This document shows, piece by piece, positions 4,333 to 25,652 of a DNA stretch of 34,437 nt. The stretch lies in the NCBI GenBank assembly GCA_964534675.1, contig CAZHQZ010000001.1, positions 1-34,437 of the forward strand, read 5' to 3'. Below the pieces are notes generated by a model. That model saw only the letters and a program-made list of their open reading frames with translations, was not told the DNA's origin and ran no database searches. A program made the translations under genes and the position numbers. The DNA is from an uncultured Pseudomonadales bacterium (GTDB lineage: Bacteria > Pseudomonadota > Gammaproteobacteria > Pseudomonadales > UBA7239). The number at the start of each line of letters is the position of its first letter. Position 1 is the first letter of the stretch.

Positions 4333-4354
4333 AAACCCGCAATTACGCGGGTTT
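4333..4354 (+). terminator. Candidate rho-independent terminator (short, bidirectional-looking)
   Basis: aaACCCGCaattacGCGGGTtt: a 5-bp GC stem extended by A-T pairs, A-run before and TTT after. It lies 12 nt after the stop of 3530..4321. Confidence 0.45.
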
Positions 4355-4410
4355 CAGGACTTTCTTGAACTGCTGTGGATCTCGAAATGGTGGGATAAGC
4401 TCCCTCGAAT
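4355..4410. repeat. Left attachment-site repeat (att) of the small integrative element
   Basis: The 33-nt core is at 4361-4393. Weaker similarity continues on both sides (..GG.C before; .TAAGCTC...C.A.T after) to its partner at 8522-8578. Confidence 0.7.
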
Positions 4411-4461
4411 AGTAGCTGCAAGCCCTTGCAAACACTACATTCTTAAAATTCAAAAAAGCGA

Positions 4462-4483
4462 GTTACTGTAAAAGTTACTGCAT
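4462..4483. promoter_or_regulatory. Arm-type repeat pair GTTACTG-TAAAA-GTTACTGCAT (putative integrase/excisionase binding sites)
   Basis: A 22-nt string identical to 8421-8442, and itself an internal direct repeat of GTTACTG. It lies ~70 nt inside the left att repeat. Confidence 0.5.
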
Positions 4484-4701
4484 TTGGCGGCGACAACAGC
4501 GCCGCCAAGAACTAGACCACACAAATCATAAAAACAAGTGCAGTGTTGGGTGGAAGTGGCGGGGCGCTCGATTCAACCGATGCCGCTGGTCTTAACTTTT
4601 CCAGCCTGCTTCCCGACAAGCCGAATACCACCGCATAGCAATCCAACATACTTTTTCAACCCACGGTATTTGCATCCGACAGCATCAAAGCTCAATCTGC
4701 A

Positions 4702-5268
4702 ATGCCGACGACAAAGAGACTGAAGGAAGTTTTGAAGACGCTTGACGTTCAAAACTTTGACTCTGCCAAGACGACTCTCCCAGCAAACCCTCCAGCAGTT
4801 TCAAGCTACCTGATGAGGCAGTCCTCGTCAATGAGATCTGGGCTGTTTGGCAAGGGCGATGCCGTTTACCTGATTGGCAAATCCACCGGCAAAGACAGCG
4901 TTAGCGTGGTCGCAAAAGGCGGCACCTTCGATGTAAAAATGGCGCTTGCCGGTGTTGGTGGCGAGTTTTCAGGCTCTGCCGCTGAAGCAAAATCATGGCT
5001 CAAGTCGCGCTTGCAGGGCATGGGCAGCGCCATGTCTGGCAACGAAATGACAGATAGCGAGCTGGCCGCCAAGTTGAAGCTGGTTAAAGGTGAGGATGCG
5101 CTGGAGATTTTTGCAGCGAAAAAAGACGAAAAAGGCTTTACCTGGAAAGGTGTTGCTGCCGCCGACATTATCAAAGAGCTGAGCAAAGATCACGGCACGA
5201 ATGTTGATTTTTGGAACGCGCCTACTGCTGACGTGCTGGCTAATACGCCAAATAATGAAGATGCATAG
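4702..5268 (+). CDS. Hypothetical protein (element cargo), no recognisable family
   Basis: 188-aa ORF and the only plus-strand gene of the element. Gly/Ala/Lys-rich, with no TM segment or signal peptide. It converges on 5356..5940 across a GC-rich hairpin region. Confidence 0.55.
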   Translation: MPTTKRLKEVLKTLDVQNFDSAKTTLPANPPAVSSYLMRQSSSMRSGLFGKGDAVYLIGKSTGKDSVSVVAKGGTFDVKMALAGVGGEFSGSAAEAKSWLKSRLQGMGSAMSGNEMTDSELAAKLKLVKGEDALEIFAAKKDEKGFTWKGVAAADIIKELSKDHGTNVDFWNAPTADVLANTPNNEDA

Positions 5269-5355
5269 TCCACTGCGCAACTAACGCACTGCGTTTGTTT
5301 TCTGGCTAGGTTCGGGCGCGCTTCGCGCACCCTGCGCCGCGCCCAGACGCTTCCT

Positions 5356-5940
5356 CTAAAAAGCAACAACCTTGCTCTTGATCTGACTGCTGGAGTAATC
5401 ATTAGCCGTAGGTTTGCGCTGACCTTTGGTGTACACCTTGGCGAGATATGACAGCCAATAGAAAGTATCTGCAAACGTCATTTCATCACCGCGATGCACA
5501 ACACGCGCATCCCGCCAATCTGTCTGCACTTGCCCTACTTGCCACAGCGTTTTGCAAATGCCCGTTAATTGTTTAGCCGAGCAAATAGCATTGCCGTCCA
5601 GCAATAGCACGAGGTGGTAGTGCGTGTTGCCGGAAGCTTTACCTGTTTCACGCGCCCAGACATATCCAACACGATTTAAGCGTGCATACTCTTTTGGCAA
5701 TTGTGCTGAAAGGCGTTTCATAAACTGAGAAATCAAGCGATTATCCGGCACAAAATTTCCACAGTGCAGATCAAACCGAGCGACAAACATTTTGGAATGA
5801 TGGCTCAGTAATGCGGTCATTTGATGCTCAATCCGTTGCAAGATTTGCACATAGCAGCCAAGGCTACCCCCTCGCGCGTTGTTCACAGACAGCAACCTGC
5901 CATTGACGTTGATGCCGGCATCTTGGGTGACCGTTTTCAT
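5356..5940 (-). CDS. YagK/YfjJ-family (inovirus Gp2-like) protein, possible replication initiator
   Basis: C-terminal two thirds of track ORF 5356..6294. The motifs FVARFDLHC...GYVWARETGK..NTHYHLVLLLDGN resemble the YagK/YfjJ domain of E. coli cryptic prophages. The track start at 6294 overlaps the alpA-like gene, so I use ATG 5940 (MKTVTQD...). The start is uncertain. Confidence 0.6.
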   Translation of the reverse strand: MKTVTQDAGINVNGRLLSVNNARGGSLGCYVQILQRIEHQMTALLSHHSKMFVARFDLHCGNFVPDNRLISQFMKRLSAQLPKEYARLNRVGYVWARETGKASGNTHYHLVLLLDGNAICSAKQLTGICKTLWQVGQVQTDWRDARVVHRGDEMTFADTFYWLSYLAKVYTKGQRKPTANDYSSSQIKSKVVAF

Positions 5941-6124
5941 GCCGCACCGCCTTGCAGTGTTGCACACCCAGTATTCAGCACACAGAGAGATTCTTTGATG
6001 CCGTATACCGTTTGGCGCAAGAAAATAGCCTGCAATCCAGATGCAGCAAGGGTTTCGGCGCGGCAGAGCCAGTGAAAAAAACGAGAAAGTTTCGGAGAAA
6101 TTTGCGCATGCCAAATTGTAGATT

Positions 6125-6370
6125 TCAAGCAAAAACCTCTTTTCTGGCTTGCTCAAGTTGCAGAACCAATTCACGGATTTCGGTGTCAGATTTTCCTGCA
6201 ATGCGTGCGGCATTGATGGCTGTGATTTCGTTGGATGGCCAGCCAACGGCACGACCACCCAATGATATGGGTTTTGTCCAAAGCCCTTGGGCAATACGCA
6301 GGTAGATGGTGGAACGAGCCAGTGCTGACTCTGCCAACACTGATGGCAAGCGAAGGATTGTGGTGTGCAT
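6125..6370 (-). CDS. alpA: AlpA-family phage regulatory protein / excisionase-like HTH
   Basis: 81 aa. ILRLPSVLAESALARSTIYLRIAQGLWTKPISLGGRAVGWPSNEI is the typical AlpA/Phage_AlpA MerR-like HTH signature. It sits next to a P4-type integrase. Confidence 0.85.
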   Translation of the reverse strand: MHTTILRLPSVLAESALARSTIYLRIAQGLWTKPISLGGRAVGWPSNEITAINAARIAGKSDTEIRELVLQLEQARKEVFA

Positions 6371-6459
6371 GTTGAACCTCGTTGGATAAACCTAGAGGCT
6401 TCATGGTGCGAAGTTATGAGGTATAACTCGCCACCACTGCTAGCAAGGTGGCAACCCTG

Positions 6460-7107
6460 CTAGCTAAGGGGTTTACTCGCGTATTTTCTTTTCCAAGATG
6501 GTATCCACTTCTTATAAATAGTGGAGTAACTCAGGTCAGGGTTGAGCCTAGATACCATTTCTGTGAAGTCGGAATCATTTCTGTATAGATGTGGTGATTC
6601 TTGCCACTTTTGCCATTCTTGAAGCACTTTTATTTTTTTTGCCTTTTCTTCCTGTGGGCGATTTTTTTCCTTTGCTGCCGCCCCTGATTTTGCTCGACTG
6701 CTAAAGGCTTTTTGGGTTGCATCTTTTCTAGATAGCTTCACGTTATCTACGAGTTGGTCGGGAAGAATAGGAAGCAACTCCTTGGCATAATCTGGATCTG
6801 TTGTTTGTGCAAGCGCAGCCACTTCATTGATTGTTTTGCAAGCTATATCTTCCAACAGATAAAAGAGATTAAGAATGTCGCCAGTACCGAAAGATCCTCC
6901 AACATTTTCTATGAAGGCACTTATTCTGTTGTTTCGACTTAATATATCGGAATGTGTTACACACTTTTCCGCAAGCGCAAAGCGGAGAAATTCCTGGGCA
7001 ACTCCTTGTATTGCCACGCGGCGTTTTGACGAGATTTTATATAGGGACAAGGGGTGATTACTTATGCAGTTGCTACTACTAGAAGAGCTTTTTTTCTCTT
7101 TAGGCAT
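6460..7107 (-). CDS. Hypothetical protein (element cargo), Ser-rich N-terminus and Lys-rich C-terminal half
   Basis: 215-aa ORF starting 18 nt after the integrase stop, so probably co-transcribed. It is noticeably AT-rich compared with its neighbours. No family recognised. Confidence 0.6.
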   Translation of the reverse strand: MPKEKKSSSSSSNCISNHPLSLYKISSKRRVAIQGVAQEFLRFALAEKCVTHSDILSRNNRISAFIENVGGSFGTGDILNLFYLLEDIACKTINEVAALAQTTDPDYAKELLPILPDQLVDNVKLSRKDATQKAFSSRAKSGAAAKEKNRPQEEKAKKIKVLQEWQKWQESPHLYRNDSDFTEMVSRLNPDLSYSTIYKKWIPSWKRKYASKPLS

Positions 7108-7125
7108 AAGGCGATCCCCGCAAAT

Positions 7126-8361
7126 TCATATACCAGCTTTTAGTTCGTCCAAATAATCCGCCCAAGTTTGCATCATCTTCTTCCGCTCCGGCAGGTGTTT
7201 GGTGCGGTTATATGCCGTGCCGTTGGCATCTTTTACAGCGTGTGCGAGTTGGCGCTCTATCAATGCCACGCGACAGCCCAGCACTTCATCCAACACGGTG
7301 CGCGCCATTGCGCGAAAGCCGTGGCCACACATTTGCTCTTTGGTGTAACCCATACGGCGCAAAGCCACCAAAATGGCGGCATCACTCATGGGGCGACCAT
7401 TGGCGCGTGCACACGGAAAGACATACCGCCCTGTGCCGGTGAGCGCCTGTAACTCACGCAAAACTGCAACAGCCTGCACAGACAACGGCACAAAATGCGG
7501 TTCACGCATTTTCATTTTGCTGGCGGGGATATTCCATTCAGCTTTTTCCAGATCAATTTCCGCCCATTCTGCATAGCGCAATTCACCGGGGCGCACAAAT
7601 ACCAATGGCGCGAGGCGCAAAGCAGACTTGGTAACAAAATACCCCTGATAAGCATCTATGGCGCGTAACAACTCACCAATGGCTTTAGGTTCGGTAATGG
7701 AAGCGTAATGGCTTTGCTTCACTGCTGGCAGTGCGCCGCGCAAATCCGGGCAGGGGTTGCGCTTGGCTCGCCCCGTGGCAATGGCGTAGCGGAATATCTG
7801 CCCGCAATTCTGGTGTGCACGGTGCGCGGTATCCAGTGCGCCACGCGCTTCGATTCTGCGCAATACTTGCAGCACATCCATGGCTTCAATGTCGGCAATG
7901 GGCATTCTGCCCAGCCATGGAAATACATCCACCTCCAAGCGCCGGATAATTTTGCTGGCGTGCGAGGCAGCCCACTCCACTGAAAACTTGGCAAACCATT
8001 CACGCGCCACCTCTTCAAAGGAACCTACTGACGGTAAACCTTCGGCAAGACGCTTATCCACCTCCAGTGTCTTTGCTTGTTCCACTTTGCTGGCTTTGCG
8101 CAGGTCACTGGGGTCTATGCGCGCTGCCACCTGCTGCCGCGCTTCTGCGGCTTTGTCACGGGCTGCTTTTAAGCCGGTATCGGGGTAAGTGCCGAGGGAA
8201 AGCGTTTTGCGTTTGCCGCCGATGCTGTAATCCAGCCGCCACCAATGCGAACCGCTGGGCTTCAGTAGCAGGTAGAGGCCATCACCATCTTTGAGGCGTG
8301 GGGTAGCGTCTGGCTTGGCCGTGCGGATGGCCATATCGGATTTGATCAAATGCCTTGCCAT
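7126..8361 (-). CDS. Tyrosine recombinase, P4-type integrase with DUF4102-like N-terminal arm-binding domain
   Basis: N-terminus RTAKPDATPRLKDGDGLYLLLKPSGSHWWRLDYSIGGKRKTLSLGTYPD. Catalytic motifs: VRPGELR, GHGFRAMART, LAHAV...GTAYNRT. The track start 8415 is over-extended, so I use ATG 8361 (MARHLIKSD...). Confidence 0.9.
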   Translation of the reverse strand: MARHLIKSDMAIRTAKPDATPRLKDGDGLYLLLKPSGSHWWRLDYSIGGKRKTLSLGTYPDTGLKAARDKAAEARQQVAARIDPSDLRKASKVEQAKTLEVDKRLAEGLPSVGSFEEVAREWFAKFSVEWAASHASKIIRRLEVDVFPWLGRMPIADIEAMDVLQVLRRIEARGALDTAHRAHQNCGQIFRYAIATGRAKRNPCPDLRGALPAVKQSHYASITEPKAIGELLRAIDAYQGYFVTKSALRLAPLVFVRPGELRYAEWAEIDLEKAEWNIPASKMKMREPHFVPLSVQAVAVLRELQALTGTGRYVFPCARANGRPMSDAAILVALRRMGYTKEQMCGHGFRAMARTVLDEVLGCRVALIERQLAHAVKDANGTAYNRTKHLPERKKMMQTWADYLDELKAGI

Positions 8362-8363
8362 AT

Positions 8364-8472
8364 CAGTAACTTCCGTGAGAAATGCAGTAACTTTTCTTGC
8401 CAAAAGCAGTAACAAGGGATGTTACTGTAAAAGTTACTGCATAAATCGACGGATTGCCATAGATGTTACTGG
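8364..8472. promoter_or_regulatory. Cluster of arm-type repeats: (G)CAGTAAC x3 then GTTACTG x3
   Basis: CAGTAAC at 8364-8370, GCAGTAAC at 8384-8391 and 8406-8413, then the inverted version GTTACTG at 8421-8427, 8432-8438 and 8465-8471. All lie between the integrase start codon and the right att repeat. Confidence 0.5.
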
Positions 8473-8521
8473 TTTCTGCTGGACATAAAAAAAGCCGTAA
8501 CCCTTGATTTCATTAGATATT

Positions 8522-8578
8522 CCGGCCTTTCTTGGACTGCTGTGGATCTCGAAATGGTGGAGGTAAGCTCATCCAATT
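8522..8578. repeat. Right attachment-site repeat (att) of the small integrative element
   Basis: The 33-nt core at 8528-8560 matches 4361-4393 with one mismatch. Flanking partial similarity is as for the left copy. Confidence 0.7.
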
Positions 8579-8905
8579 ACACGCCATAACAGACTGATTT
8601 ATAAACATGTTAAGCCATTAAGCACTGCTCTATTCCCCCATAAATGCCCCCAACCTAAAATATGGCATCTATTCGATAGATGATTTCGCGCTTCCAATGC
8701 ATGAAGTCTAACCAAAAATTAATTTATATGCTTCAAACCCTATCTTTCCGCTAAAGTAAGCCATCCCACCACATCATCAAAGTGTTACGAAAAGTGGGCT
8801 GCAAAACCAATCAAGATAGACATCTACACGGGCTTGGAATAATACCTTGTAGCCTAATGAACCACATCGTCTTATTGATCTTGCCAGCTTTTCACGGCCA
8901 GTCTG

Positions 8906-9766
8906 CTAAGAGACTTTTTGTGCCTCAAACGCTTCCGGGCTGAGATAGCCTAAAAACGAATGCAGGCGTTGTCGATTGTAATAGATGTCGATGTACTCAA
9001 ACACCGCTGCCATCGCTTCAGCACGCGTGGCAAAATGTTCGCCATGTATGCTTTCCACCTTCAAGCTGTGGTTCCAACTTTCCATCGCTGCGTTATCGTA
9101 ACAATCGCCTTTTTTACTCATGCTGCACACCAGTTCGTGTTTTTGCAAAAGGCGTTGATAAGCGTGTGAGCAGTATTGGCTACCGCGATCCGAATGCACG
9201 ATCACACCTTTTGGCATTTTCCTGCGCCACAACGCCATTTTTAATGCATCCATCACCAGCGTTTTACTCATGCGGTCCGACATCGACCAACCCACCACCA
9301 GCCGCGAATGCAAATCCAGCACCACAGCGAGATACAGCCAGCCTTCACGCGTTTCAATATACGTGATGTCGCTCACCCATTTTTGATTCGGTTTTGCAGC
9401 GTAAAAATTTTGTTCCAACAGATTTTTTGCAACCGGAAGATTGTGTTTCGAGTTCGTGGTCGCTTTGAACTTGCGCGCGGCTTTTGCTACTAAACCCTGT
9501 TTTTGCATGCGTTTTGCCACACGATGCTTGCTAACGGGCATGCCTTGGTTACACAAAGCCTGTGCGATCCTTGGCGCACCCGCTCGGCCTTTTTGCGCAT
9601 GAAACACGTCGTGGATTTTTACATCCAGTTGCATATTTTCTTGCGCACGAACACTGGGTTCGCGTCGCTTCCAGTGACCGTAGCCCGAACGCGACACGCT
9701 CAATGCGCGGCACATCAAACTGATCGTATGTTGGCCTTCGTGCTGCTGGATGGTGGCGTACTTCAC
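8906..9766 (-). CDS. IS3-family transposase OrfB (DDE/rve integrase core), probably expressed as an OrfAB frameshift fusion
   Basis: DDE motifs: WVSDITYI, VHSDRGSQYCS, DNAAMESWNHSLKVE. C-terminal YYNRQRLHSFLGYLSP. Confidence 0.9.
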   Translation of the reverse strand: MKYATIQQHEGQHTISLMCRALSVSRSGYGHWKRREPSVRAQENMQLDVKIHDVFHAQKGRAGAPRIAQALCNQGMPVSKHRVAKRMQKQGLVAKAARKFKATTNSKHNLPVAKNLLEQNFYAAKPNQKWVSDITYIETREGWLYLAVVLDLHSRLVVGWSMSDRMSKTLVMDALKMALWRRKMPKGVIVHSDRGSQYCSHAYQRLLQKHELVCSMSKKGDCYDNAAMESWNHSLKVESIHGEHFATRAEAMAAVFEYIDIYYNRQRLHSFLGYLSPEAFEAQKVS

Positions 9767-10068
9767 TGAGGCTGTTTCGCGAAGTACACCGCCGCTTTTT
9801 TTAGGAAAGCGAGCTCTTCTTCCAGTTGCGTATTTTTACGCTTCAGCCGCGCCAACTCCACTTGTTGGCGATTCTGTTCTTCAAAACCCTTGCCGATACG
9901 CAGCAGCTTCTGCCGCCAGTTGTAGAGCGTGGCTTCTGATATCCCCAGCTCCATGGCCACCATGGCAACGCTTTCCTTCTCACTACGATCCACTGCCAGT
10001 TGCTTGAACTGTGGGCTATGCTGGCGGCGGGTTGGTTTGATGATGGTTACTGTCTTCTTGCTCTTCAT
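9763..10068 (-). CDS. IS3-family transposase OrfA (HTH)
   Basis: 101 aa. RRQHSPQFKQLAVDRSEK.SVAMVAMELGISEATLYNWRQK is followed by a leucine-zipper-like ELARLKRKNTQLEEELAFLKKA. It ends 4 nt inside orfB. Confidence 0.85.
   Translation of the reverse strand: MKSKKTVTIIKPTRRQHSPQFKQLAVDRSEKESVAMVAMELGISEATLYNWRQKLLRIGKGFEEQNRQQVELARLKRKNTQLEEELAFLKKAAVYFAKQPQ
9796..9802 (-). promoter_or_regulatory. Programmed -1 frameshift slippery run (A7 on the coding strand)
   Basis: The coding strand reads ttc cta aaa aaa gcg near the end of orfA. An A-AAA-AAA/G heptamer at this position is typical of IS3-family orfA-orfB junctions. Confidence 0.6.
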
Positions 10069-10125
10069 GGGTCACCTCAGGGTTAGATTACTCCCTTAGC
10101 CAGGTGGCCGAGAAACTATGGCAAG

Positions 10126-10218
10126 ATCAGTAAACTTCGTGCCCGCAAAAGACGCAACAGAAAATAAAAACAGCAATGATGCCAGCAAGATTTTTGATAC
10201 AGCAGAACGGATACTCAT
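10126..10218 (-). pseudogene. 5' remnant (signal-peptide region only) of a third Rhs-core toxin gene, abutted by the IS
   Basis: The minus strand reads MSIRSAVSKILLASLLFLFSVASFAGTKFTD, near-identical at nucleotide level to the 5' ends of 10877..11680 and 12286..13176. Homology stops at the IS. Removing the IS and one ATC copy gives ...KFTDQ-stop, so it was already truncated before insertion. Confidence 0.7.
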
Positions 10219-10290
10219 CGCAAGACCCCGTCATCTCAACCGACTGGTTGCAGACCTAGGGAAGGCGCTCCAACACACCGTCCACCACCA
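10219..10290 (-). pseudogene. Degenerate remnant of the 3' end of a paralogue of the 13173..13808 gene
   Basis: The minus-strand translation ...VLERLP*VCNQSVEMT aligns with ...MLDRLSLARSRLVELT of the 211-aa protein. It has an in-frame stop and a 1-nt frame difference at the ATGA junction. Confidence 0.4.
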
Positions 10291-10428
10291 TACTCTGCAG
10301 CATACAAAATACTTGATTAACGCCAAGCTCAAGCACCAACTTCTCTATCAAACTACTATGTTCTCTATATTTAGCAGAACCCACTCTGTATAGATTCAGA
10401 AGATAAAGACCCTAAAGCATGCGAATAT

Positions 10429-10872
10429 CTAGTCATCCTGATATTTGCATTCTGGATCGTTATAAAGATTTTTATTAGCATAAGCAGCATTATCTTTCAT
10501 AAAACTTGAAAATGCCTCTCTGTCAACTTGATATGCATATCCCCCCCGTTCGAAAACACCATTTCTGTCAATATGGATAGTCTCCTTATCAAAAAGAGCC
10601 TTGACTCTAACTAGAGATCCGTCAAATACTTCTGTCGTTTTTTTGCTGGAAACAACAACCCCATAAATCACCATAATCTTATTTTTTACATCTGTAGAAT
10701 ACTTTATTTTGTAGTCGCAAAATATATCATCCTGAGTAACAGGAGTATAAGTTTCCACAGAAAATGGAATGTAATAAACAGTCATAGAGCCTGGCTCGTA
10801 AACAGAGCAAGAAACACCAGAAAAAATTAAAGCAGCCGCCACAAGCGATTTTTTTTTCATAACCTTTACCAT
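10429..10872 (-). CDS. Exported small protein, putative immunity protein for the metallopeptidase toxin
   Basis: N-terminus MVKVMKKKSLVAAALIFSGVSC is a signal peptide with a non-canonical lipobox. It starts 4 nt after the stop of the toxin gene. The track start 10938 overlaps the toxin gene; the alternative ATG is at 10860. Confidence 0.6.
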   Translation of the reverse strand: MVKVMKKKSLVAAALIFSGVSCSVYEPGSMTVYYIPFSVETYTPVTQDDIFCDYKIKYSTDVKNKIMVIYGVVVSSKKTTEVFDGSLVRVKALFDKETIHIDRNGVFERGGYAYQVDREAFSSFMKDNAAYANKNLYNDPECKYQDD

Positions 10873-10876
10873 GCGA

Positions 10877-11680
10877 CTATTTATATTTTGTTCTTTCTGG
10901 ATAACCAAGTTCACGCCTGATTGGGTTTTCATTTTCATTTACATTATCCATATTATCCAAACCAACATCGAGTGTATAAGTTGCAGCATGACCAATTTCA
11001 TGACCAAGCAATATAGACAAAGGAGTAGATTTTTTTCCTTCTGTTGTCTGAACTTTTGCAGACCAATTCGGATCAATTGAGATAACTTTATCAACAAAAT
11101 CGTAACTCGCCTTGTTTTTTATGTCTGCATCGGTAATTTTATAATGGACATCCTTCCCCGAAGAATCTTTGTCCGTATCAAGTTTGTTGTATAGCCTTCG
11201 TCCATGCTCACTCTTCATAAGCTCTGCAATCGCAGACCTAAAGACAGCATCGTTTCCTTGAGACCACGCAAACTCAACTTTCCGCCCATCAGGATCAACA
11301 AACTTGTACGGATTATTGTTGGCATAGGCATACCGATTAAATGACATCGGATTCTTTTCAGTAAAACGCACAGGATCGTCTGATAAAAATATACTTAACG
11401 CAGGATCGTAATAACGCGCACCGGCATATACCAAATCCGGTTTGTCTTCTACATGGCCGGTGTAACCAATACGATTATCCCGATCATTGCCGCTCGCTTT
11501 GCCATACGGCTGATACGTTTTGCGCCATATCACGTCACCTGCCTGATTCATCGCTACCACTGGCGAACCCAGAGCATCGTTAACGTAAGACGTAAACTTC
11601 GTGTCGGCAAAAGACGTAACAGAAAATAAAAACAGTGATGATGCTAACAAGATTTTTGATACAGCAGGACGGATACTCAT
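10877..11680 (-). CDS. Signal peptide + C-terminal half of Rhs core domain + HExxH metallopeptidase-type toxin domain
   Basis: Signal peptide MSIRPAVSKILLASSLFLFSVTSFA|DTKF. Core: ALGSPVVAMNQAGDVIWRKTYQPYGK...YTGHVEDKPDLVYAGARYYDPALSIFLSDDPV...NRYAYANNNPYKFVDPDGR. Variable C-terminus with LLGHEIGHAATY. Confidence 0.8.
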   Translation of the reverse strand: MSIRPAVSKILLASSLFLFSVTSFADTKFTSYVNDALGSPVVAMNQAGDVIWRKTYQPYGKASGNDRDNRIGYTGHVEDKPDLVYAGARYYDPALSIFLSDDPVRFTEKNPMSFNRYAYANNNPYKFVDPDGRKVEFAWSQGNDAVFRSAIAELMKSEHGRRLYNKLDTDKDSSGKDVHYKITDADIKNKASYDFVDKVISIDPNWSAKVQTTEGKKSTPLSILLGHEIGHAATYTLDVGLDNMDNVNENENPIRRELGYPERTKYK

Positions 11681-11846
11681 TGTAATTTCTCCGTTAACTC
11701 AACTAACCGACTACGCGCCAGTGAAAGCCGATCCAGCATGCTACTGACGGCGGCATCCTGCAATTTTTCTTTCATCAATCTTTGCCTGATAACAACCATC
11801 TGTTTTAGAAACGGATCCTGCTCATAATGCGCGTTGATTGGCACAT
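11285..11846. repeat. 562-bp direct repeat, copy B (toxin 5' half plus upstream gene 3' end)
   Basis: Aligns colinearly with 12781-13342 at a constant offset of 1496 nt, with only scattered substitutions by eye. Similarity ends abruptly at both borders. Confidence 0.85.
11681..11846 (-). pseudogene. Duplicated 3' fragment of the 13173..13808 gene (no start, non-functional copy)
   Basis: Near-identical to 13177-13342, which encodes the C-terminus ...HYEQDPFLKQMIVIRQRLMKEKLQDAAVSSMLDRLSLARSRLVELTEKLQ. Its distal 25 nt now provide the last codons and stop of the immunity ORF 11822..12283. Confidence 0.7.
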
Positions 11847-12283
11847 GAATCAGTCACAAGAATAGCCTCTTCGTATCCATCCAACTCTTGGCTCACCCAA
11901 GACTCACCGTCACGAACAACATGAAACTTAACCAAAGCCCCCGATCCATCGCTAGAAATAATCGCCAAGATAGGACTGCTTGCAAAACTTTTTTTCCAAG
12001 CACTAAACAATGCCTCTACAAAAAGACACGCAGTAACGATATAGTCATGCTGAGTATAATCATCAATATGAATAGAATTAATGAAGCACTCATACCCTGT
12101 ATTATCTGGAAAATCATCTTTAGATACATTTGTATCAAGCTTTGCAAGAGATGCCAATAAGATACAGCCATCTCGATTAATGAAACCGAGATCAAGAATA
12201 TGAGAAAGCTCTGGCGGCAAGCCCTTACCCTCCCAACTCAAATTCTGCATTTCATTAACCATTTTTTTATTCATCTTAAACAC
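11822..12283 (-). CDS. Cytoplasmic small protein, putative immunity protein for the 296-aa toxin
   Basis: 153-aa ORF with a GTG start 2 nt after the toxin stop, preceded by AGGGGAA. No signal peptide, acidic. Its position is typical of toxin-immunity pairs. Confidence 0.6.
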   Translation of the reverse strand: MFKMNKKMVNEMQNLSWEGKGLPPELSHILDLGFINRDGCILLASLAKLDTNVSKDDFPDNTGYECFINSIHIDDYTQHDYIVTACLFVEALFSAWKKSFASSPILAIISSDGSGALVKFHVVRDGESWVSQELDGYEEAILVTDSCANQRAL

Positions 12284-12285
12284 GA

Positions 12286-13176
12286 CTATTCCCCTAAATA
12301 TTTAGTCATGCCTTTTTTAATGGCATTTTGGAATTCAGTATCCTCCAACAAACCATTCACAGATTTAGGGGCATCTGGAAAAGAATTTGTTTTAGGGTCA
12401 TACAGGTATTTGTTACCCGCGTTATCCTGATAATGCAGTTGCCCAGCACGCTGACCAGGATTGGGATTTTCCACATCAATTCGCGCCTTTCCTTCACCCT
12501 TCCAAAGTGTTTTGCTAAAAGTTTGAACGCCTCGCTCTCCTAGCATTCCTCCCTTTGCAGCAACCACCCCTTTTCCTATGATCTTAACTACTCCACCTAG
12601 AACAACCTCTGCGGGAACAAAACTTGTTGCATCTTCAAATGCAGAGGAAGCGAACCCAGCACCTTCGCCGTTATAACCGTCTACTAATGCTCCTCCAAGG
12701 TTGTTTGCATTAAACCCATTTCCACTTATGAGCTGACCGGTTTCATACAACAAACCACCGAATGCTGTAACCGCATTTTGCCCATCTGGATCAACAAATT
12801 TATACGGATTATTGTTGGCATAGGCATACCGATTAAATGACATCGGATTCTTTTCAGTAAAACGTACAGGATCGTCTGACAGTAATATTCCCAAAGCAGG
12901 ATCGTAATAACGTGCGCCTGCATACACCAGATCGGGCTTGTCTTCTACATGGCCGGTATAGCCAATACGGTTATCCCGATCATTGCCGCTCGCTTTGCCA
13001 TACGGCTGATACGTTTTACGCCATATCACATCACCTGCTTGGTTCATCGCCACAACGGGCGAACCTAACGCATCATTGACGTAAGACGTAAACTTCGTGT
13101 CTGCAAAAGACGTAACAGAAAATAAAACCAGCAACGATGCCAGCAAGATTTTGAATACAGCAGAACGGATACTCAT
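12286..13176 (-). CDS. Signal peptide + C-terminal half of Rhs core domain + unassigned C-terminal toxin domain (possible pre-toxin TG linker)
   Basis: Signal peptide MSIRSAVFKILLASLLVLFSVTSFA|DTKF. Same core as 10877..11680 up to NNNPYKFVDPDGQ. Then a Gly-rich AFGGLLYETGQLISG segment and a unique C-terminus (GKARIDVENPNPGQRAGQLHYQD...). The ATG overlaps the upstream stop (ATGA). Confidence 0.8.
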   Translation of the reverse strand: MSIRSAVFKILLASLLVLFSVTSFADTKFTSYVNDALGSPVVAMNQAGDVIWRKTYQPYGKASGNDRDNRIGYTGHVEDKPDLVYAGARYYDPALGILLSDDPVRFTEKNPMSFNRYAYANNNPYKFVDPDGQNAVTAFGGLLYETGQLISGNGFNANNLGGALVDGYNGEGAGFASSAFEDATSFVPAEVVLGGVVKIIGKGVVAAKGGMLGERGVQTFSKTLWKGEGKARIDVENPNPGQRAGQLHYQDNAGNKYLYDPKTNSFPDAPKSVNGLLEDTEFQNAIKKGMTKYLGE

Positions 13177-13342
13177 TGTAATTTCTCCGTTAACTCAACC
13201 AACCGACTACGCGCCAGTGAAAGCCGATCCAGCATGCTACTGACAGCAGCATCCTGCAATTTTTCTTTCATCAATCTTTGCCTGATAACAATCATCTGTT
13301 TTAGAAACGGATCCTGCTCATAATGCGCATTGATTGGCACAT
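12781..13342. repeat. 562-bp direct repeat, copy A
   Basis: Partner of 11285-11846. Spans codons 1 to ~132 of the 296-aa toxin gene plus the last ~166 nt of the 13173..13808 gene. Confidence 0.85.
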
Positions 13343-13808
13343 AATTTTCTGCCCTGCAACCCAGATAGGCGTACACAGTTTGATCCAGTGCCGCTAGTGC
13401 CAAACCACGTTGCTGTTCTTGTACTTCTGAACCCGGCTGAGAGGCTTTGATGGCTTCTAGGTTCATGCGGGCATCATTCATGCCCTGATTGAGTTGCTGG
13501 TTGAGTGTCGCATCCTTGGACAGCTGAATTAATCCGAAACTGACACTACTGTTTGAATGAGTAAGTGTTTTGCCTTGCGGCACCATCATCGTGCGGGCGG
13601 CAGATTGCCCAGATAGCGTCGTTGCCTGAGTGTTGCGCAATCTCAAAACTTCACTGGCACGGCTATATTGCCGCTGCAACGCCTGATTACGCTGGATGAG
13701 TGCGTCCGATGCTTCTTCCGAGTGCGCCGCTGGTGTGGTAATCGTAAAAATCACTGCCCCAACGACTGCCAGCCCCTGATGCACAACGACTCTCATTATT
13801 CTGTTCAT
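13173..13808 (-). CDS. Exported coiled-coil protein of unknown function, translationally coupled on both sides
   Basis: The start MNRIMRVVVHQGLAVVGAVIFTITTPAAHS|EE (signal peptide) uses the ATG at 13808, which overlaps the TGA of the giant gene (ATGA). Its own TGA overlaps the ATG of the toxin gene (ATGA). Gln/Leu-rich, heptad-like sequence. Confidence 0.7.
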   Translation of the reverse strand: MNRIMRVVVHQGLAVVGAVIFTITTPAAHSEEASDALIQRNQALQRQYSRASEVLRLRNTQATTLSGQSAARTMMVPQGKTLTHSNSSVSFGLIQLSKDATLNQQLNQGMNDARMNLEAIKASQPGSEVQEQQRGLALAALDQTVYAYLGCRAENYVPINAHYEQDPFLKQMIVIRQRLMKEKLQDAAVSSMLDRLSLARSRLVELTEKLQ

Positions 13809-16800
13809 AAGCAATCCCAATAGGTTGCAACAAGAGATGTGTTCTGAATTAAGGTTGGCTCAACTCCTCCAGTCGCGGCTATCAAGCCCTGTAAAGCCGA
13901 GCGGTTAATGCTGCAAGTTCCCGCTTTAATACGCTCCAATTGACTATCAGGATTACCCCAATCCGCTACCACAAAGTAATGTTGGCTACCCCGCTCATGA
14001 ATGATCAGACTGTCACCTTGTTGTTCCATCCATAGTTGGTTAGCGCGCAGCAACCCTGTCAATTGCATCGTATCTCTACCCGTGCCGCCTACCGTATATA
14101 TTGTTGTCCACGCGTCGTCTGCCATTTGATACAGGTCATTGCCTGGACCTCCATACAACGCACTATGGCCATAAGGCCCTCTGGCTATCAGCGTGTCATC
14201 ACCATCCTCTCCATACAGTGTTTGGCCACCCCAGCCGCCTTCCAGTGTGTCATTACCATCACCGCCATAAATGACATCGGCGCTTCCATTGGCGCTGTAT
14301 ATCACATCATTTCCAGCATCTCCGTACAAAACATCATCCCCCCAACTACCTGTAATGTGATCATTACCATCACCTCCATGAATGGTGCCACCATCGTAAG
14401 CAACTAAAATATCGTCAGCAAAAAGAGGATTCGCGTCATCTAACAATGCATCAGTCAAAACACGATTTTTGATGCAGTGCTGCACGCCAGTAAAGTCGAT
14501 ACAGCTGCCATCCCAGGTCACCCCATTAATGACAATATCCAACTCTGAAAAATTATAAGGAGGGTTATCAAAGAAACTCAGCACACGGGTAGTCGAAGCA
14601 TTGCTGCCATCGTTAATTTTGACGATTAAATCCATATTGGATCGCAACATCTGCACTTGTGAATCTGTTACGCCACTTAACATGACAATACGATCATGCG
14701 GCGCTCCCACTCCTAAAAAAGAACCAGTGGTTACATCCAAATTTTCAATGGTCGTATTGCCGCTGTTAGCATCCAACTCATAGGTATCTGCACCCGCCCC
14801 ACCCGATATCCAGTTATTACCGGAGCCGGGATTTAATACATCATCACCGCTGTCTCCCATGAGCTGATCATCACCGGAACCGCCATTCAAAATATCATTT
14901 CCGCCCCAACCGAATGCAATATCATTTCCCGATGTGCCTACAAATGTATTGGGTTCATCACAGGTAGTAGAACAACCACTAACCATTTTTACCTTTGTAA
15001 TGATGGCTTGCTTATCTAGCGGAAGATCCGACTGAGCACCATTAGCGGCTTTAAACTCGATATGATCAAAATTTGCCACCCCGTTTGGAACGCCAAGCTC
15101 GACGCTTGTGTACTGATCGTTGGCAAAAAAACCTAACAAACGAATTTCATCTGTTGTTGTAGGTTTTATAAGAAGATCCAAGCCATCTCGCTGAAAACTT
15201 GTCGTTGCTTGTGTAATGCCAGCGCCTAGCTGCAACGTATCCCCACTAGCCAGTTCAGGCACAAGCTCAACAACATCTCGTCCATCACCAACATTAAACT
15301 TGATCGTATCCGACCCATCACCTGTACGTAGCAGATCATTACCACCGAATCCTTCAAACACTTCAGGTATAGAATCTTCTCCTGACAACGTTTCATTCCG
15401 ACCATAACTGGCGTTGCCGCTAATAATGCCGCTGGTTACAGAAGGCACCAGCTCTACTACTGCTCTGTAACCATCCTGGCTACTGGTTGTTTCGCGATCA
15501 GCTACACGGTAACTGAATGTCAAAGGCGAGGTATAAGGTTGTGGAAACTCTGTGCCGATGGATCCATTACCCGGTGAATTCCAGTAGTTTTCATACCACG
15601 GCGAATCGGCTGCATTATCATTCAGCGGTGATAGTGAGGCCGTATTAAGATACAGCGCCCTCCTAGCTGGATTAAAATCATTGGCCAGAAGATCTTTTTC
15701 ATTAATCCACCGATACTGCGCAGCAGGCATCACAAAGAAATCATCAACCGCAACATAATTTGTAACCGTTGCACCAAAGGCAATGTAGTTCATTGCATGG
15801 CGATAAACATCTTTGGCGTAATCAATCAACATTAAGTTGTCAGTGGCGTCTGACAAGCCAACAGAAAGATTATCGCCTTCAATTGCGAAACGAACGGTAT
15901 CCGGCGGTTGCGTGCTATTAAGCTGCAACTTATCTTCGCGATTCGATGTTGCATCCTCAAAATAAGCAATATCAAATCCACTACCTTTGCTGAAGAGCAA
16001 CGTGTCATTACCATGACCATCCAGCAAAATATCATTACCGAATCCACCACTATAAAAACCATTATTTGCGGCATCATCAATAGCAATAACACCCGCATGG
16101 TCAGTAGCATATGATGCTAAATTCGTTCCAGTAGGCAGTAATTTTATATTGATCACCCCTTTTTTGGTTGCATTGCTACCATCACGCACAGTGATAGAAA
16201 AAGTAGAGTTATTCGTGGGGGGCGTGTAAGAATAACTAAGCGTATTGTTGGCGTATGTCAATACACCAGCACTATAGCTAGGCAGATCACTCACACTGCT
16301 AATATCAAGCGTTGCTAGAGACAATCCTGCCGGATCTGCCATAGCCAACACCCATTTCTTGCCGACACTGAATCCTGCGTGTGCCAATACGCTAATTTGA
16401 AAGCTGTCAGCAGAGTTGATGGGGCTAGTCGCGTTGGTCACTTCTAGTCCATCATTTACGCCGTCACCATCGGTATCCAACAACAATGGATTAGATCCCA
16501 TTGCACTTTCTACGCCATCATTAAGGCCATCTCCATCAGTATCCTTAACAAGAGGATTGGTTCCCAGATTACTTTCATCTCGATCAGATAATCCATCACT
16601 GTCAGAGTCTGTATCACCAAGATAACGGAATAGAGAAAAATCATCATTACCAGAGGAATTGCTATAACCGGCAACGACAAATTTTCCATCTACCTGCTTG
16701 ATCATCGATTGCATTGTTCCAGTTGATGAATCAAATGGGGTCGTAACAATTCCATCATCATCAAATTCCGTATCTAGCTCTCCACTGTCGTTAAATTTCA

Positions 16801-24737: not shown

Positions 24738-25652
24738 TCAAGCCACCCCAACCCTAGCAGCCATCTTACTATCCAGCTTCTCCATCAAACTCGGCCGTCC
24801 CTTGGCCGAGGTGTGCTGAGCAGTGTCCACTGCCTGCTCTGAAGGATTGTCTGTTTCTGGAAAAAACTCTTCCAAAATATCTGGCACTTCTTCCTCGCTG
24901 GTCTCAAACGCCGCATTCTGAAAACCTAATCGTGCTGCCTGATCGAGACCTTCTTGATCGAACCCTACCGCTTTGCGCTGTACATCTATTTCTCGCGCTT
25001 GCACAATCGCTTGTTCCAACGTCATGCCATCACGCACGGTGATGTCGGCATAGAAAATCGCAGCGCGATAAATTTGCGTGGTGCTTTTGCCGCGCAGTTT
25101 TAATTCCAGCGGCATGCAAGCGAGTAACCCGCCTGACACTGCATGAAAATAATTTAAGCGTGCAGCCAAGGTGCGGATGCTGTTAAACCCCGTGGTACGA
25201 AAAATGAAAGAACCCAACTCATCTTCGTCACCAATGCGAACATTCAAACGTCCGTAAGGCTTGCAACCAGCTTTTGCCAACTCGCAACTTTCTGGCGATG
25301 GGCATGGCAGTGATTGAATCACGCCGTTGCAGGTGCGTTTGCACTGCTCACCGTTGCCCACACACACCGGCCTGCCGTTTTTACGATCAAACAAACTGTA
25401 TTCCGCACGCAGATTGAGATCTGGATCGTTGAACAACAAGCGAATCGGAATAGCGCGCAGCTTGCCGTTATTGGCAGTTTTGCGCAGCTCTTCATCGAAA
25501 GGATGATTGATCCAACCGTCTTTGCCTTGCACTTGTGTGGTGATGGTGAACTGGTCATCTTTTTCTGGCAGGCGTTTGCCGTTCTTTTCAACAACGCGCC
25601 CAATGGAAATCCGCCCTAACAGTGGCGGTGTAATAGCGAGACCTTTAATCAT
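24738..25652 (-). CDS. Conserved-looking Cys-rich protein of unknown function, downstream of the YqaJ exonuclease gene
   Basis: 304 aa from ATG 25652, with AGGAG 8 nt upstream. Cys cluster CVGNGEQCKRTCNGVIQSLPCPSPESCELAKAGCKPYGRLNV. Acidic C-terminal tail. Confidence 0.65.
   Translation of the reverse strand: MIKGLAITPPLLGRISIGRVVEKNGKRLPEKDDQFTITTQVQGKDGWINHPFDEELRKTANNGKLRAIPIRLLFNDPDLNLRAEYSLFDRKNGRPVCVGNGEQCKRTCNGVIQSLPCPSPESCELAKAGCKPYGRLNVRIGDEDELGSFIFRTTGFNSIRTLAARLNYFHAVSGGLLACMPLELKLRGKSTTQIYRAAIFYADITVRDGMTLEQAIVQAREIDVQRKAVGFDQEGLDQAARLGFQNAAFETSEEEVPDILEEFFPETDNPSEQAVDTAQHTSAKGRPSLMEKLDSKMAARVGVA

What the first reader, a model, noticed from the sequence alone, without database searches (positions are those of the whole stretch)
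4355..8578. Minimal (~4.2 kb) integrase-AlpA-Gp2-like element: candidate phage satellite or mobilisable micro-island
The element is bounded by direct repeats with a 33-nt core (32 of 33 identical) and has multiple arm-type repeats inside both ends. It has only five ORFs. Four are in one minus-strand operon: int, a 215-aa unknown, an alpA-like gene and a YagK/YfjJ inovirus-Gp2-like protein. One unknown 188-aa ORF is on the plus strand. There are no capsid, terminase, conjugation or relaxase genes. Integrase + AlpA + a replication-type protein is the core of P4-like and PICI-type satellites of Proteobacteria, but those are usually about 10 kb or larger. This one is closer in size to the recently described minimalist satellites of marine vibrios. 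It may hijack a helper phage or ICE for transfer, with the two unknown ORFs as hijacking or defence functions.
Basis: partly seen in the sequence, partly recalled or inferred. Interest (0 to 1): 0.65.

Follow-up and report, generated by a model that had tools for sequence, protein, structure and literature searches.

The report
Minimal tRNA-Ala integrative island with HUH Rep
This is a real, intact 4.2-kb mobile mini-island inserted just behind a tRNA-Ala gene, carrying only an integrase, an AlpA excision regulator, a rolling-circle-type Rep protein and two small unknown genes, so it must borrow a phage or a conjugative element to move between cells.

Summary
Two direct repeats (4353-4393 and 8520-8568, with a 25-nt exact core) bracket five ORFs. 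GTTACTG arm-type sites cluster inside both ends.

The target is the 3' end of tRNA-Ala(GGC) plus about 19 nt downstream of it. An unoccupied site (host flank joined directly to the tRNA end) is present in a soil metagenome, so the block is not fixed.

The tRNA body is not next to the element. A second island of more than 26 kb lies between them, so this is a tandem array.

The Gp2-like protein family has invariant HUH (H-Y-H) and YxxK motifs.

Integrases 86-91% identical, with the same arm sites, head 14-17 kb defence islands; those seen in a chromosome sit at tRNA-Ala(GGC). One of these was assembled as a closed circle carrying an attP junction.

The int-alpA-Rep module recurs widely, including DR-bounded 4.9-7.2 kb elements at tRNA or tmRNA genes.

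The layout matches PICMI satellites (int, X, alpA, replication gene, accessory gene), but with an HUH Rep in place of the primase and a tRNA target in place of fis.

I could not test excision of this copy, or find its helper.

Verdict: a new variant of a known kind (helper-dependent integrative island). The satellite reading is plausible but unproven.

The parts
4353..4393 (.). Distal att copy (attR relative to the tRNA). The 25-nt exact core is 4369-4393, which is CCACCA plus 19 nt of tRNA-Ala downstream sequence read on the minus strand. A degenerate tRNA-end copy (GCTTATC-CCACCA) runs on to about 4403. The host's native tRNA terminator lies at 4322-4352.
   Evidence: empty-site contig
4394..4484 (.). 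Distal arm of attP. It holds two GTTACTG arm-type sites (4462-4480) within the 22-mer GTTACTGTAAAAGTTACTGCAT, which is repeated in the other arm and is 100% conserved in relatives' attP junctions.
4484..4508 (.). Strongest hairpin in the element (TTGGCGGCG-ACAACAG-CGCCGCCAA, 9-bp GC-rich stem). It is a candidate nick or packaging site, which is speculation. It is not conserved in relatives.
4702..5268 (+). Accessory ORF of 188 aa (alternative start at 4831 gives 145 aa). It is a stand-alone copy of a domain of about 90 aa that otherwise sits inside DarA_N / InPase / LPD3 'polyvalent' proteins of phages and conjugative elements.
   Evidence: no fold match
5356..5943 (-). HUH Rep-like protein (YagK_YfjJ_C / REP_ORF2-G2P), 194-195 aa. 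The family-invariant residues are RFDL, WARE, H108-Y109-H110 and S165-Y166-L167-A168-K169.
6125..6370 (-). AlpA-family HTH protein, a putative excision factor or activator.
6460..7107 (-). 215-aa ORFan in the variable slot between int and alpA. In relatives this slot holds anything from a 164-292 aa unknown to about 10 kb of defence genes.
7126..8361 (-). P4-type tyrosine integrase, 411 aa. The R...HxxR...Y residues can be read in VRPGEL, HGFRAM and AYNR.
8362..8519 (.). Integrase-proximal arm of attP and the int promoter region. It holds six GTTACTG sites (8364-8471). A terminator-like copy (about 8484-8527) replaces the tRNA's native terminator. This arm is conserved in the islands headed by the 86-91% identical integrases.
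8520..8568 (.). tRNA-proximal att copy. It consists of the 25-nt core followed by an exact 14-nt tRNA-Ala 3' end (GCTTACCTCCACCA on the minus strand). The sequence then diverges into island 2.
8569..34437 (.). Context: a second island lying between the element and the tRNA. It carries an IS3-family IS (8906-10068), RHS toxin cassettes, a 3464-aa RHS/RTX protein (13805-24199), a Gp3-like RDF, YqaJ, DUF6878, DUF932, an HTH protein, a GTPase, and an ORF that runs off the window end.

Best explanation
The block is a complete, probably still functional, helper-dependent integrative mini-island (a 'hitcher').

Integration (shown or strongly inferred): its P4-type integrase recombines an attP of about 300 nt (two arms carrying GTTACTG arm-type sites) with an attB. 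The attB is made of the last bases of tRNA-Ala(GGC) plus about 19 nt downstream. The crossover falls somewhere inside the 25-nt identical core. The element supplies a replacement terminator for the tRNA.

Position (shown): it sits as the distal member of a tandem array, behind a larger island in the same tRNA site.

Excision (inferred): AlpA acts with the integrase to excise a 4.2-kb circle.

Replication (inferred): the HUH/YxxK Gp2-like protein nicks the circle at an unidentified origin and drives rolling-circle replication. It takes the place that a primase holds in sister elements with the same integrase and att system, and in PICMI and P4.

Transfer (inferred, least certain): the element has no packaging or conjugation genes, so transfer needs a helper. 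The most likely route is a phage that packages multimers. The experimental precedents are PICMI115 and the jumbo-phage-transduced I55 islands, which also carry alpA and a Gp2-like gene.

Accessory genes: the 215-aa ORFan and the 188-aa polyvalent-protein-domain ORF are accessory cargo of unknown effect.
For: Boundaries and arms.

Target: a loose end of 24 nt plus CCACCA matches the tRNA-Ala 3' end. A 25-nt pattern taken from that end (19 of the loose-end bases plus CCACCA) hits more than 120 genomes, and ARAGORN calls tRNA-Ala in all nine loci checked.

Empty site: in run X4, a 342-nt contig equals window 4076-4393 with one mismatch and continues directly into the tRNA-Ala end.

Intact integrase: all three domains are present, and it is 91% identical to P0049.

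Same att system in sister islands: gltX - tRNA-Ala(GGC) - int in L221 and L227. The arms are conserved, including the 22-mer ATGCAGTAACTTTTACAGTAAC and the motif TTCGAGGGAGCTTA.

Circular relative: L222 is a circular permutation of the L221 island. It is 100% identical over both halves, its ends overlap by 24 nt, and it carries an attP-type junction. A second attP-type junction occurs in the 17.2-kb contig, whose integrase is 86% and whose Rep is 73% identical to the window's.

Rep: Pfam REP_ORF2-G2P at E = 1.8e-8. HUH and YxxK are invariant in 15 diverse homologues. The model is confident (pLDDT 89), and HUH Rep nuclease domains recur among the best PDB fold matches, although weakly.

Positional swap: sister islands carry alpA followed by a Zn-ribbon DnaG/Toprim primase where this element has alpA followed by Rep.

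Module conservation: int, alpA and rep are colinear in 32 of the 41 loci that have enough upstream DNA. DR-bounded elements of 4.9-7.2 kb sit at tRNA-Asn and tRNA-Arg, or carry tRNA/tmRNA-type DR ends; other family loci lie beside tmRNA.

Literature: PMC10803314 (PICMI layout and the role of alpA) and PMC12595487 (I55 islands carrying intY, alpA and a Gp2-like gene, transduced by a jumbo phage).
Against: - No attP junction or copy-number excess was seen for this element. Its contig depth equals that of its flanks (11.9/11.8/17.1 in runs X1-X3). Only assembled contigs were available, and these drop rare forms.
- No origin, pac or cos site, or oriT was identified. The only strong hairpin is not conserved.
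- The fold matches of Rep to HUH nucleases are weak (no hit at E <= 0.001; TM-scores normalised to the query mostly 0.2-0.3, 0.18-0.33 overall). No member of the YagK/YfjJ family has a tested function.
- No phage was linked to the element. Homologues of Rep are rare in viral contigs (8 loci).
- The element could be a cargo-stripped derivative of a larger defence island.
Confidence: 0.6

Rival explanations
1. It is an integrative mobilisable element (IME). The HUH protein acts as a relaxase at an oriT on the excised circle, and a conjugative element provides the mating pore. The element might also move by accretion with the neighbouring island in the same tRNA site.
For: HUH/YxxK chemistry is shared by relaxases and Rep proteins. 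The element is in tandem with a larger island whose distal junction starts at the same GCTTACC boundary. Tandem arrays of related elements are seen elsewhere (277-nt direct repeat 4.9 kb apart flanking the int-alpA-rep module in L181). The accessory ORF's domain occurs in polyvalent proteins, which are found in both phages and conjugative elements.
Against: No conjugation genes (T4SS, coupling protein) are visible in the 26 kb of island 2 that is in the window. Its genes (DUF932, YqaJ, GTPase, HTH) match those of non-conjugative CP4/I55-type islands. The Pfam match is to phage replication initiators, not to relaxase families. The only experimental transfer data for islands with alpA and Gp2-like genes are phage-mediated (PMC12595487).
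Confidence: 0.18
2. It is a stripped-down remnant: the backbone of a 14-17 kb defence island that lost its cargo. It can still integrate and excise but no longer transfers, and the Gp2-like protein has some role other than replication, for example regulation.
For: The closest relative carrying both genes (int 86%, Rep 73%) has about 10 kb of restriction and defence genes exactly where this element has only the 215-aa ORFan. The ORFan has no homologue among 5.8 billion proteins and lies in a low-GC stretch. The element's depth equals the chromosomal depth.
Against: All backbone genes are full-length. The 25-nt core is perfect and the arm sites are intact and identical to those of active-looking relatives. 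Independent elements of 4.9-5.2 kb with the same module at other tRNAs argue that small size is a stable state and not an accident.
Confidence: 0.15
3. It is a satellite of a filamentous phage (inovirus). The gpII-like Rep makes single-stranded circles that a helper inovirus coats and extrudes, as with RS1 and TLC in Vibrio cholerae, but with integration by its own tyrosine integrase at a tRNA.
For: The only family assignment of Rep is to inovirus gpII / ORF2 replication initiators. The size of 4.2 kb fits small filamentous satellites (RS1 and TLC, from my own knowledge). A GC-rich hairpin next to attP could act as a packaging signal.
Against: There is no inovirus gene nearby and no conserved packaging hairpin in relatives. 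The same Rep family sits in 20-55 kb islands, which are far too large for this route and which were shown to move by a jumbo tailed phage (PMC12595487).
Confidence: 0.07

Closest known systems
PICMI (phage-inducible chromosomal minimalist islands) of Vibrionaceae, e.g. PICMI115, 6.1 kb (PMC10803314)
   Same: Tiny size. Same gene order: int, a variable gene directly after int, alpA, a small gap or gene, a replication gene, then an accessory gene. No packaging or capsid genes. AlpA-family excision factor.
   Different: The replication gene here is an HUH Rep-like protein of about 195 aa, not a DUF3987/DUF5906 primase. The target is the tRNA-Ala 3' end, not fis. The host is a wastewater/soil proteobacterium, not a Vibrio. 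No helper is known and none was tested.
I23/I44/I55 tmRNA-associated genomic islands of Pseudomonas, transduced by a jumbo phage (PMC12595487)
   Same: A tyrosine integrase beside a tRNA-like gene, direct repeats that include the ...CTCCACCA end, alpA plus an inovirus Gp2-like gene as conserved core, and no autonomous transfer genes. The neighbouring island 2 carries the YqaJ and HTH genes typical of that class.
   Different: Those islands are 23-55 kb, with alpA and Gp2-like at the end far from int and with large defence cargo. They target tmRNA and have a conserved 23-bp end sequence that is absent here.
CP4-57-type islands of E. coli (intA-yfjH-alpA-yfjI-yfjJ at ssrA); comparison from my own knowledge of the K-12 map, not tested here
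   Same: Same order: P4-type int, unknown gene, alpA, gene, YfjJ (YagK/YfjJ family). AlpA-controlled excision.
   Different: CP4-57 is about 22 kb with many further genes. Here the module stands alone between its att sites.
Sister islands with the same integrase and att system (L221/L222 from the MAG GCA_046347205.1 and run SRR13208899; the 17.2-kb contig from SRR16308653)
   Same: Integrase 86-91% identical, identical arm-type sites and arm sequences, and alpA followed by a replication gene. In the chromosomal copies seen (L221, L227) the target is tRNA-Ala(GGC).
   Different: They are 14-17 kb and carry Type ISP or type I restriction, GmrSD, PIF1 helicase and similar genes. L221/L222 use a Zn-ribbon/Toprim primase instead of Rep.
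P4-like and PICI satellites
   Same: P4-type integrase plus AlpA, and integration at a tRNA.
   Different: This element has no alpha primase-helicase, psu, sid or delta, no cos site, and no terS, ppi or capsid-remodelling genes.

Membership tests
PICMI | Integrase present | tested here: met
   Pfam Phage_integrase, Phage_int_M and Arm-DNA-bind_3
PICMI | AlpA (PF05930/PF12728) present | tested here: met
   PF05930, E = 1.6e-10
PICMI | Primase with DUF3987 / DUF5906 | tested here: not met
   No such hit in any of the five ORFs. An HUH Rep-like protein occupies that position.
PICMI | Integration next to fis | tested here: not met
   The att core is the tRNA-Ala 3' end plus downstream sequence
PICMI | Helper-phage-induced excision and packaging as concatemers | not testable with these tools
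   Only assembled contigs of the source runs are available
P4-like satellite | Alpha primase-helicase, psu/sid/delta, cos | tested here: not met
   No Pfam or PHROG hits to these
PICI | Packaging or capsid-interference genes (terS, ppi, cpm and similar) and pri-rep | tested here: not met
   None found among the five ORFs
I55-family tmRNA islands (Zhao et al. 2025) | intY directly downstream of tmRNA | tested here: not met
   The target is tRNA-Ala. There is no tmRNA in the window.
I55-family tmRNA islands (Zhao et al. 2025) | alpA, or the conserved 23-bp 3' end TTCAGATTACCCCGGCTCCACCA | tested here: met
   alpA is present. The 23-bp sequence is not seen at either att copy (read by eye; no pattern search was run), but the criterion is either/or.
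I55-family tmRNA islands (Zhao et al. 2025) | Frequent core genes: inovirus Gp2-like, YqaJ, HTH, RadC | tested here: inconclusive
   Gp2-like lies inside the element. YqaJ and HTH lie only in the neighbouring island 2. No RadC was found among the ORFs scanned.
HUH endonuclease superfamily (Rep/relaxase) | HUH metal-binding motif and catalytic Tyr (YxxK), conserved across the family | tested here: met
   H108-Y109-H110 and Y166-x-x-K169 are invariant in 15 homologues at 30-73% identity
HUH endonuclease superfamily (Rep/relaxase) | HUH nuclease fold | tested here: inconclusive
   The AF2 model has pLDDT 89. Foldseek lists vientovirus, AAV, B19, helitron, nanovirus and geminivirus Rep domains in the top 50, but none has E <= 0.001, and TM-scores normalised to the query are only 0.18-0.30 (up to 0.42 normalised to the target).
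Integrative mobilisable element (IME) | oriT and cognate relaxase recognised by a conjugative helper | not testable with these tools
   No oriT could be defined and no T4SS genes are visible nearby
Site-specific integrative element (generic) | Site polymorphic for occupancy: an empty attB exists | tested here: met
   A contig in run X4 joins the host flank (one mismatch in 318 nt) directly to the tRNA-Ala 3' end

The most novel reading that the evidence does not exclude
The element is the smallest member of an undescribed, widespread family of 4-7 kb satellites that replicate by rolling circle through a Gp2-like HUH initiator instead of a primase. The resulting multimeric or single-stranded copies are packaged by a helper phage, which could be tailed, jumbo or even filamentous. 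The int-alpA-Rep chassis seen here would be the minimal self-sufficient unit from which the larger tRNA/tmRNA defence islands are built by loading cargo into the slot after int.
Probability: 0.25. Interest if true: 0.8.

Novelty: new variant of a known kind. Interest (0 to 1): 0.55.

Why it matters
Many genomic islands at tRNA and tmRNA genes carry int, alpA and a YagK/YfjJ 'inovirus Gp2-like' gene. The papers I read still call the function of that gene unknown. How these islands move was shown only in 2025, and only for one case.

An element reduced to just this module gives a clean system for asking what the module does. It has intact att sites, an identified target, a documented empty site, and sister elements that swap the Rep for a primase. 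Three questions become testable: whether the HUH protein is the replication initiator, whether AlpA triggers excision, and which helper moves the element.

If the answers are yes, this is the minimal chassis of a large class of defence-carrying islands, and a second, mechanistically different kind of minimalist satellite.

Tried and rejected
- Megablast of the element against the plasmid and phage collections: no match.
- Rfam and ARAGORN on the whole window: no tRNA, tmRNA or other RNA. I first suspected ssrA as the target; ARAGORN on the matching genomes showed tRNA-Ala instead.
- Exact 36-nt attB pattern against reference genomes: no hit, so the host species is not among the references.
- Search for an attP circle junction in the source runs. 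The 'goes back' joints are only the two repeats matching each other.
- The 7178->4322 joint looked like a 2.9-kb circle, but it is a separate 3412-nt contig. That contig carries the tRNA-Ala end, an att-like 72 nt, and a different integrase whose 3' end shares 43 nt with the window's.
- The 215-aa ORF has no homologue, no family, and no similarity to the gene in the same position in L126.
- Profile search of Rep against PDB sequences: nothing.
- The accessory ORF's model has no significant fold match in PDB or BFVD.
- The non-coding stretches do not fold better than shuffled controls, and no hairpin is conserved among relatives.
- PADLOC: no known defence protein.
- An exact-sequence look-up of the flanking 263-aa protein failed.
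- Host identity stays uncertain. Hints point to a beta- or gammaproteobacterium: the tRNA-Ala downstream sequence resembles that of a Nitrosospira MAG, and the best integrase hits are from Pseudomonadales, Nitrosomonas and Nitrotoga.

Full report
**1. The observation**

The two direct repeats are real. Positions 4353-4393 and 8520-8560 match at 38 of 41 positions. An exact 25-mer occurs only at these two places in the 34-kb window, against none expected by chance.

The heptamer GTTACTG occurs 12 times in the window against 3.2 expected. Eight of the 12 copies lie in the two arms: two at 4462-4480 and six at 8364-8471, directly upstream of the integrase start.

Five ORFs lie between the repeats:
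- A P4-type integrase with its arm-binding, central and catalytic domains (7126-8361, minus strand).
- A 215-aa ORF (6460-7107, minus strand).
- AlpA (6125-6370, minus strand).
- A protein of 194-195 aa matching YagK_YfjJ_C and REP_ORF2-G2P (5356-5943, minus strand).
- A plus-strand ORF of 188 aa (4702-5268; the public gene call gives 145 aa).

No library reports a capsid, terminase or conjugation gene.

**2. The target**

The window holds no tRNA, tmRNA or other known RNA. The window comes from a wastewater metagenome (runs X1-X3).

Laying the assembled contigs of those runs on it gave a contig that matches up to 4393 and then continues AGGTAAGCGGGATCGAACCGCTGA. Read on the other strand together with the repeat, this is ...TCAGCGGTTCGATCCCGCTTACCTCCACCA, a tRNA 3' end.

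A 25-nt pattern from it hit more than 120 reference genomes. In all nine loci checked, the gene is tRNA-Ala, mostly with anticodon GGC.

So the att core is CCACCA plus 19 nt downstream of a minus-strand tRNA-Ala. The right-hand repeat carries an exact 14-nt tRNA end (GCTTACCTCCACCA). The left-hand repeat carries a degenerate copy (GCTTATC-CCACCA). This is the pattern a Campbell-type insertion leaves. The crossover cannot be placed more precisely than within the 25-nt identical core.

**3. Occupancy is polymorphic**

In a soil metagenome from another study (run X4), a 342-nt contig equals window 4076-4393 with one mismatch. It covers the end of the 263-aa host gene, its terminator and the att core. 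It then runs directly into the tRNA-Ala end. That is an empty attB in a near-identical host.

The contigs stop 30 nt into the tRNA. This would be expected if the assembler's word length is 31 (my assumption), because tRNA-Ala is a repeat in the assembly graph.

Pieces of the element at 100% identity also occur at low depth in soil, activated-sludge and aquaculture runs.

**4. It is part of a tandem array**

To the right of 8568 the sequence is not the tRNA. It is a second island that fills the rest of the window. It carries:
- an IS3-family element,
- orphan RHS toxin cassettes and a 3464-aa RHS/RTX protein,
- a Gp3-like directionality factor,
- YqaJ, DUF6878, DUF932, an HTH protein and a GTPase,
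- a long ORF that runs off the end of the window.

Its junction with the att copy starts at the same GCTTACC boundary as the mini-island's own arm. This suggests insertion by a related integrase into the same site.

A 3412-nt contig in runs X1-X3 has nearly the same depth as the window (13.4/10.2/18.3 against 11.9/about 10/17.1). It carries the tRNA-Ala end, 72 nt resembling 4322-4393 (five mismatches), and then a different integrase about 1.25 kb long. It may be the tRNA-proximal end of island 2. I could not prove that.

**5. The integrase and att system is active in relatives**

The best integrase homologues are 91% and 89% identical. They sit as gltX - tRNA-Ala(GGC) - int in a Pseudomonadales MAG and in a JGI contig.

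Their arms are conserved with the window's, including all the arm-type sites and a terminator-like stretch that replaces the tRNA's own terminator.

These relatives are 14-kb defence islands. They carry a Type ISP restriction enzyme, a PIF1 helicase or RnlAB, then alpA and a Zn-ribbon/Toprim primase.

One of them was assembled from another run as a circular permutation. It is 100% identical over both halves, with a 24-nt overlap between its ends. It contains an attP-type junction: distal arm with the same 22-mer ATGCAGTAACTTTTACAGTAAC, then TTCGAGGGAGCTTACCTCCACCA, then the integrase arm.

A 17.2-kb contig carries an integrase 86% identical and a Rep 73% identical to the window's. It shows a second attP-type junction, and it has about 10 kb of type I restriction, GmrSD and other defence genes exactly where the window has the 215-aa ORFan.

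So elements with this recombination system do circularise or form tandems, and the slot after int is a cargo slot.

**6. The Gp2-like protein**

In an alignment of 15 homologues at 30-73% identity, the invariant residues are R56, D58, Y86, W96, R98, E99, H108-Y109-H110, S165-Y166-L167-A168-K169 and K173. This is an HUH motif followed by hydrophobic residues, plus a YxxK tyrosine motif: the signature of HUH Rep/relaxase nucleases.

The AlphaFold model is confident (pLDDT 89). A PDB fold search gives no significant hit. Rep nuclease domains of vientovirus, AAV, parvovirus B19, helitron, nanovirus, geminivirus and circovirus recur among the top 50 at low TM-scores. A profile search against PDB sequences finds nothing.

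I read it as a small, single-domain HUH initiator. Its biochemical activity is untested. The papers I could read still call the function of this family unknown (PMC6174562), or list it only as a likely core gene of mobile islands (PMC12595487).

**7. A wider family**

Blind scans of viral and metagenome contigs with the Rep alignment returned 88 loci. In 32 of the 41 loci with enough upstream DNA, a P4-type integrase lies colinear upstream of Rep. In 43 of 59, an AlpA-like gene lies within 1.3 kb upstream.

In 20 loci the contig starts less than 350 nt before int. That is typical of an assembly break at a tRNA.

A direct-repeat search found complete small elements:
- 4.9 kb (L151, and L183, which is followed by a chromosomal alcohol dehydrogenase gene),
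- 5.0 kb (L201),
- 5.2 kb (L162, at tRNA-Asn),
- 6.5-7.2 kb (L126, L200, L212, L160).

These sit at tRNA-Asn or tRNA-Arg, or have direct repeats ending in ...CTCCACCA, a tRNA/tmRNA-type 3' end; other loci of the family lie beside tmRNA (L161, L217) or tRNA-Met (L149).

The window's 4.2-kb element is the smallest I saw.

**8. The accessory ORFs**

The 215-aa protein has no homologue among 5.8 billion proteins and no family hit. It is unrelated to the gene in the same position in L126.

Residues 52-142 of the 188-aa ORF match a conserved domain of about 90 aa (YLIGKSRG...GVGGEF...WL...MG...KLKLV.GEDVL). This domain otherwise sits inside 800-1500 aa proteins that carry DarA_N, InPase, LPD3 and DarA_C domains. 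Those are the 'polyvalent' proteins of phages and conjugative elements (that characterisation is from my own knowledge). A few stand-alone copies of 85-100 aa also exist.

Its model is confident over the domain, but it has no informative fold match. A role in the conflict between incoming DNA and host defence is a reasonable guess and no more than that.

**9. Mechanism**

Shown:
- The boundaries, the target and the arm sites.
- An intact integrase.
- An empty site in a near-identical host.
- The tandem context.
- An active-looking sister lineage.
- The conserved HUH motifs.

Inferred:
- AlpA-assisted excision to a 4.2-kb circle.
- Rep-driven rolling-circle replication. This rests on position: sister islands and PICMI have a primase in that slot.
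- Helper-dependent transfer.

I favour a phage helper, for two reasons. The only experimental cases with this kind of layout or gene set are PICMI115 (int-iolg-alpA-up1-prim-up2, 6.1 kb, packaged as concatemers; PMC10803314) and the I55 islands (intY, alpA, Gp2-like; jumbo-phage transduction; PMC12595487). Rolling-circle multimers would also suit headful packaging of such a small genome.

Conjugative mobilisation, a non-transferring remnant, and a filamentous-phage satellite remain open.

Against activity of this particular copy: its depth equals that of its flanks, and no attP contig exists in the source runs. Assembled contigs cannot show rare forms.

**10. Classification**

It is not a PICMI (no DUF3987/DUF5906 primase, not at fis). 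It is not a P4-like or PICI satellite (no hallmark genes). It is not a formal member of the I55 tmRNA set (different target and size). It resembles all of these in how it probably works.

I rate it a new variant of a known kind: a minimalist helper-dependent integrative island whose replication module is an HUH Rep. I rate the interest as moderate. The element is ordinary in its parts. It is useful as the smallest natural version of a backbone that carries much of the defence cargo at tRNA and tmRNA sites.

Noticed in passing
window 8569-34437: A second island of more than 26 kb lies between the mini-island and the (unseen) tRNA-Ala. It carries an IS3-family IS, RHS toxin cassettes, a Gp3-like RDF, YqaJ, DUF6878, DUF932, an HTH protein and an MMR_HSR1/DUF697 GTPase. 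This gene set recalls the conserved part of CP4-type and I55-type islands.
   Followed up: partly
window 13805-24199 (minus strand), and 10877-13820: A giant 3464-aa protein with RHS, TSP3, DUF5122 beta-propeller and RTX repeats. It is followed by orphan RHS C-terminal cassettes (one with a Peptidase_M91-like tip) and small likely immunity ORFs. This looks like a polymorphic-toxin locus with a displaced-tip array.
   Followed up: no
3412-nt Logan contig in runs X1-X3 (matches window 4322-4393 and 7136-7178): The contig carries the tRNA-Ala 3' end, a 72-nt att-like stretch including a copy of the native terminator (five mismatches), and then a different P4-type integrase. Its depth equals that of the window. 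It may be the tRNA-proximal end of island 2, which would give three att copies in one genome.
   Followed up: partly
L222 (Logan SRR13208899, 14286 nt) vs L221 (GCA_046347205.1): A 14.26-kb defence island (Type ISP R-M, PIF1 helicase, alpA, Zn-ribbon/Toprim primase) with an integrase 91% identical to the window's. It was assembled as a closed circle carrying an attP junction, so it was excised or tandem in that sample.
   Followed up: yes
L151, L183, L201, L162, L126, L212, L160, L200 (marine and other metagenome contigs): DR-bounded 4.9-7.2 kb elements with int-alpA-Gp2-like Rep. L162/L160 sit at tRNA-Asn and L200 at tRNA-Arg; the direct repeats of L126, L151, L201 and L212 end in ...CTCCACCA (tRNA/tmRNA type), with no RNA gene called on those contigs. 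They look like an undescribed family of mini-islands. L181 carries a 277-nt direct repeat 4.9 kb apart flanking the module.
   Followed up: partly
window 2731-3447 (minus strand), beside pilC-pilD-coaE (96-2738): A TfpX/TfpZ-family type IV pilin accessory protein lies next to the pilCD-coaE cluster. No pilin gene is visible between it and the tRNA-Ala site.
   Followed up: no
window 8484-8527 vs 4322-4352: The integrase-proximal arm carries a terminator-like stretch (...GGCCGGAAT...GTTACGGCTTTTTTTATG) that mimics the tRNA's native terminator (ACCCGCGTAATTGCGGGTTTTTTTATG). The copy in relatives is a perfect 8-bp stem, while here it has one mismatch.
   Followed up: partly
window 31755-34437 (plus strand): A stretch that looks ORF-free and has strong positive GC skew is in fact a long ORF (more than 790 aa) running off the window end. 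Public contigs show it as a called gene.
   Followed up: yes
window 8773-9274 and 10028-10278: Contig depth rises 5- to 20-fold over the IS3-family element's ends in runs X1-X3, so this IS is multicopy in the community.
   Followed up: no
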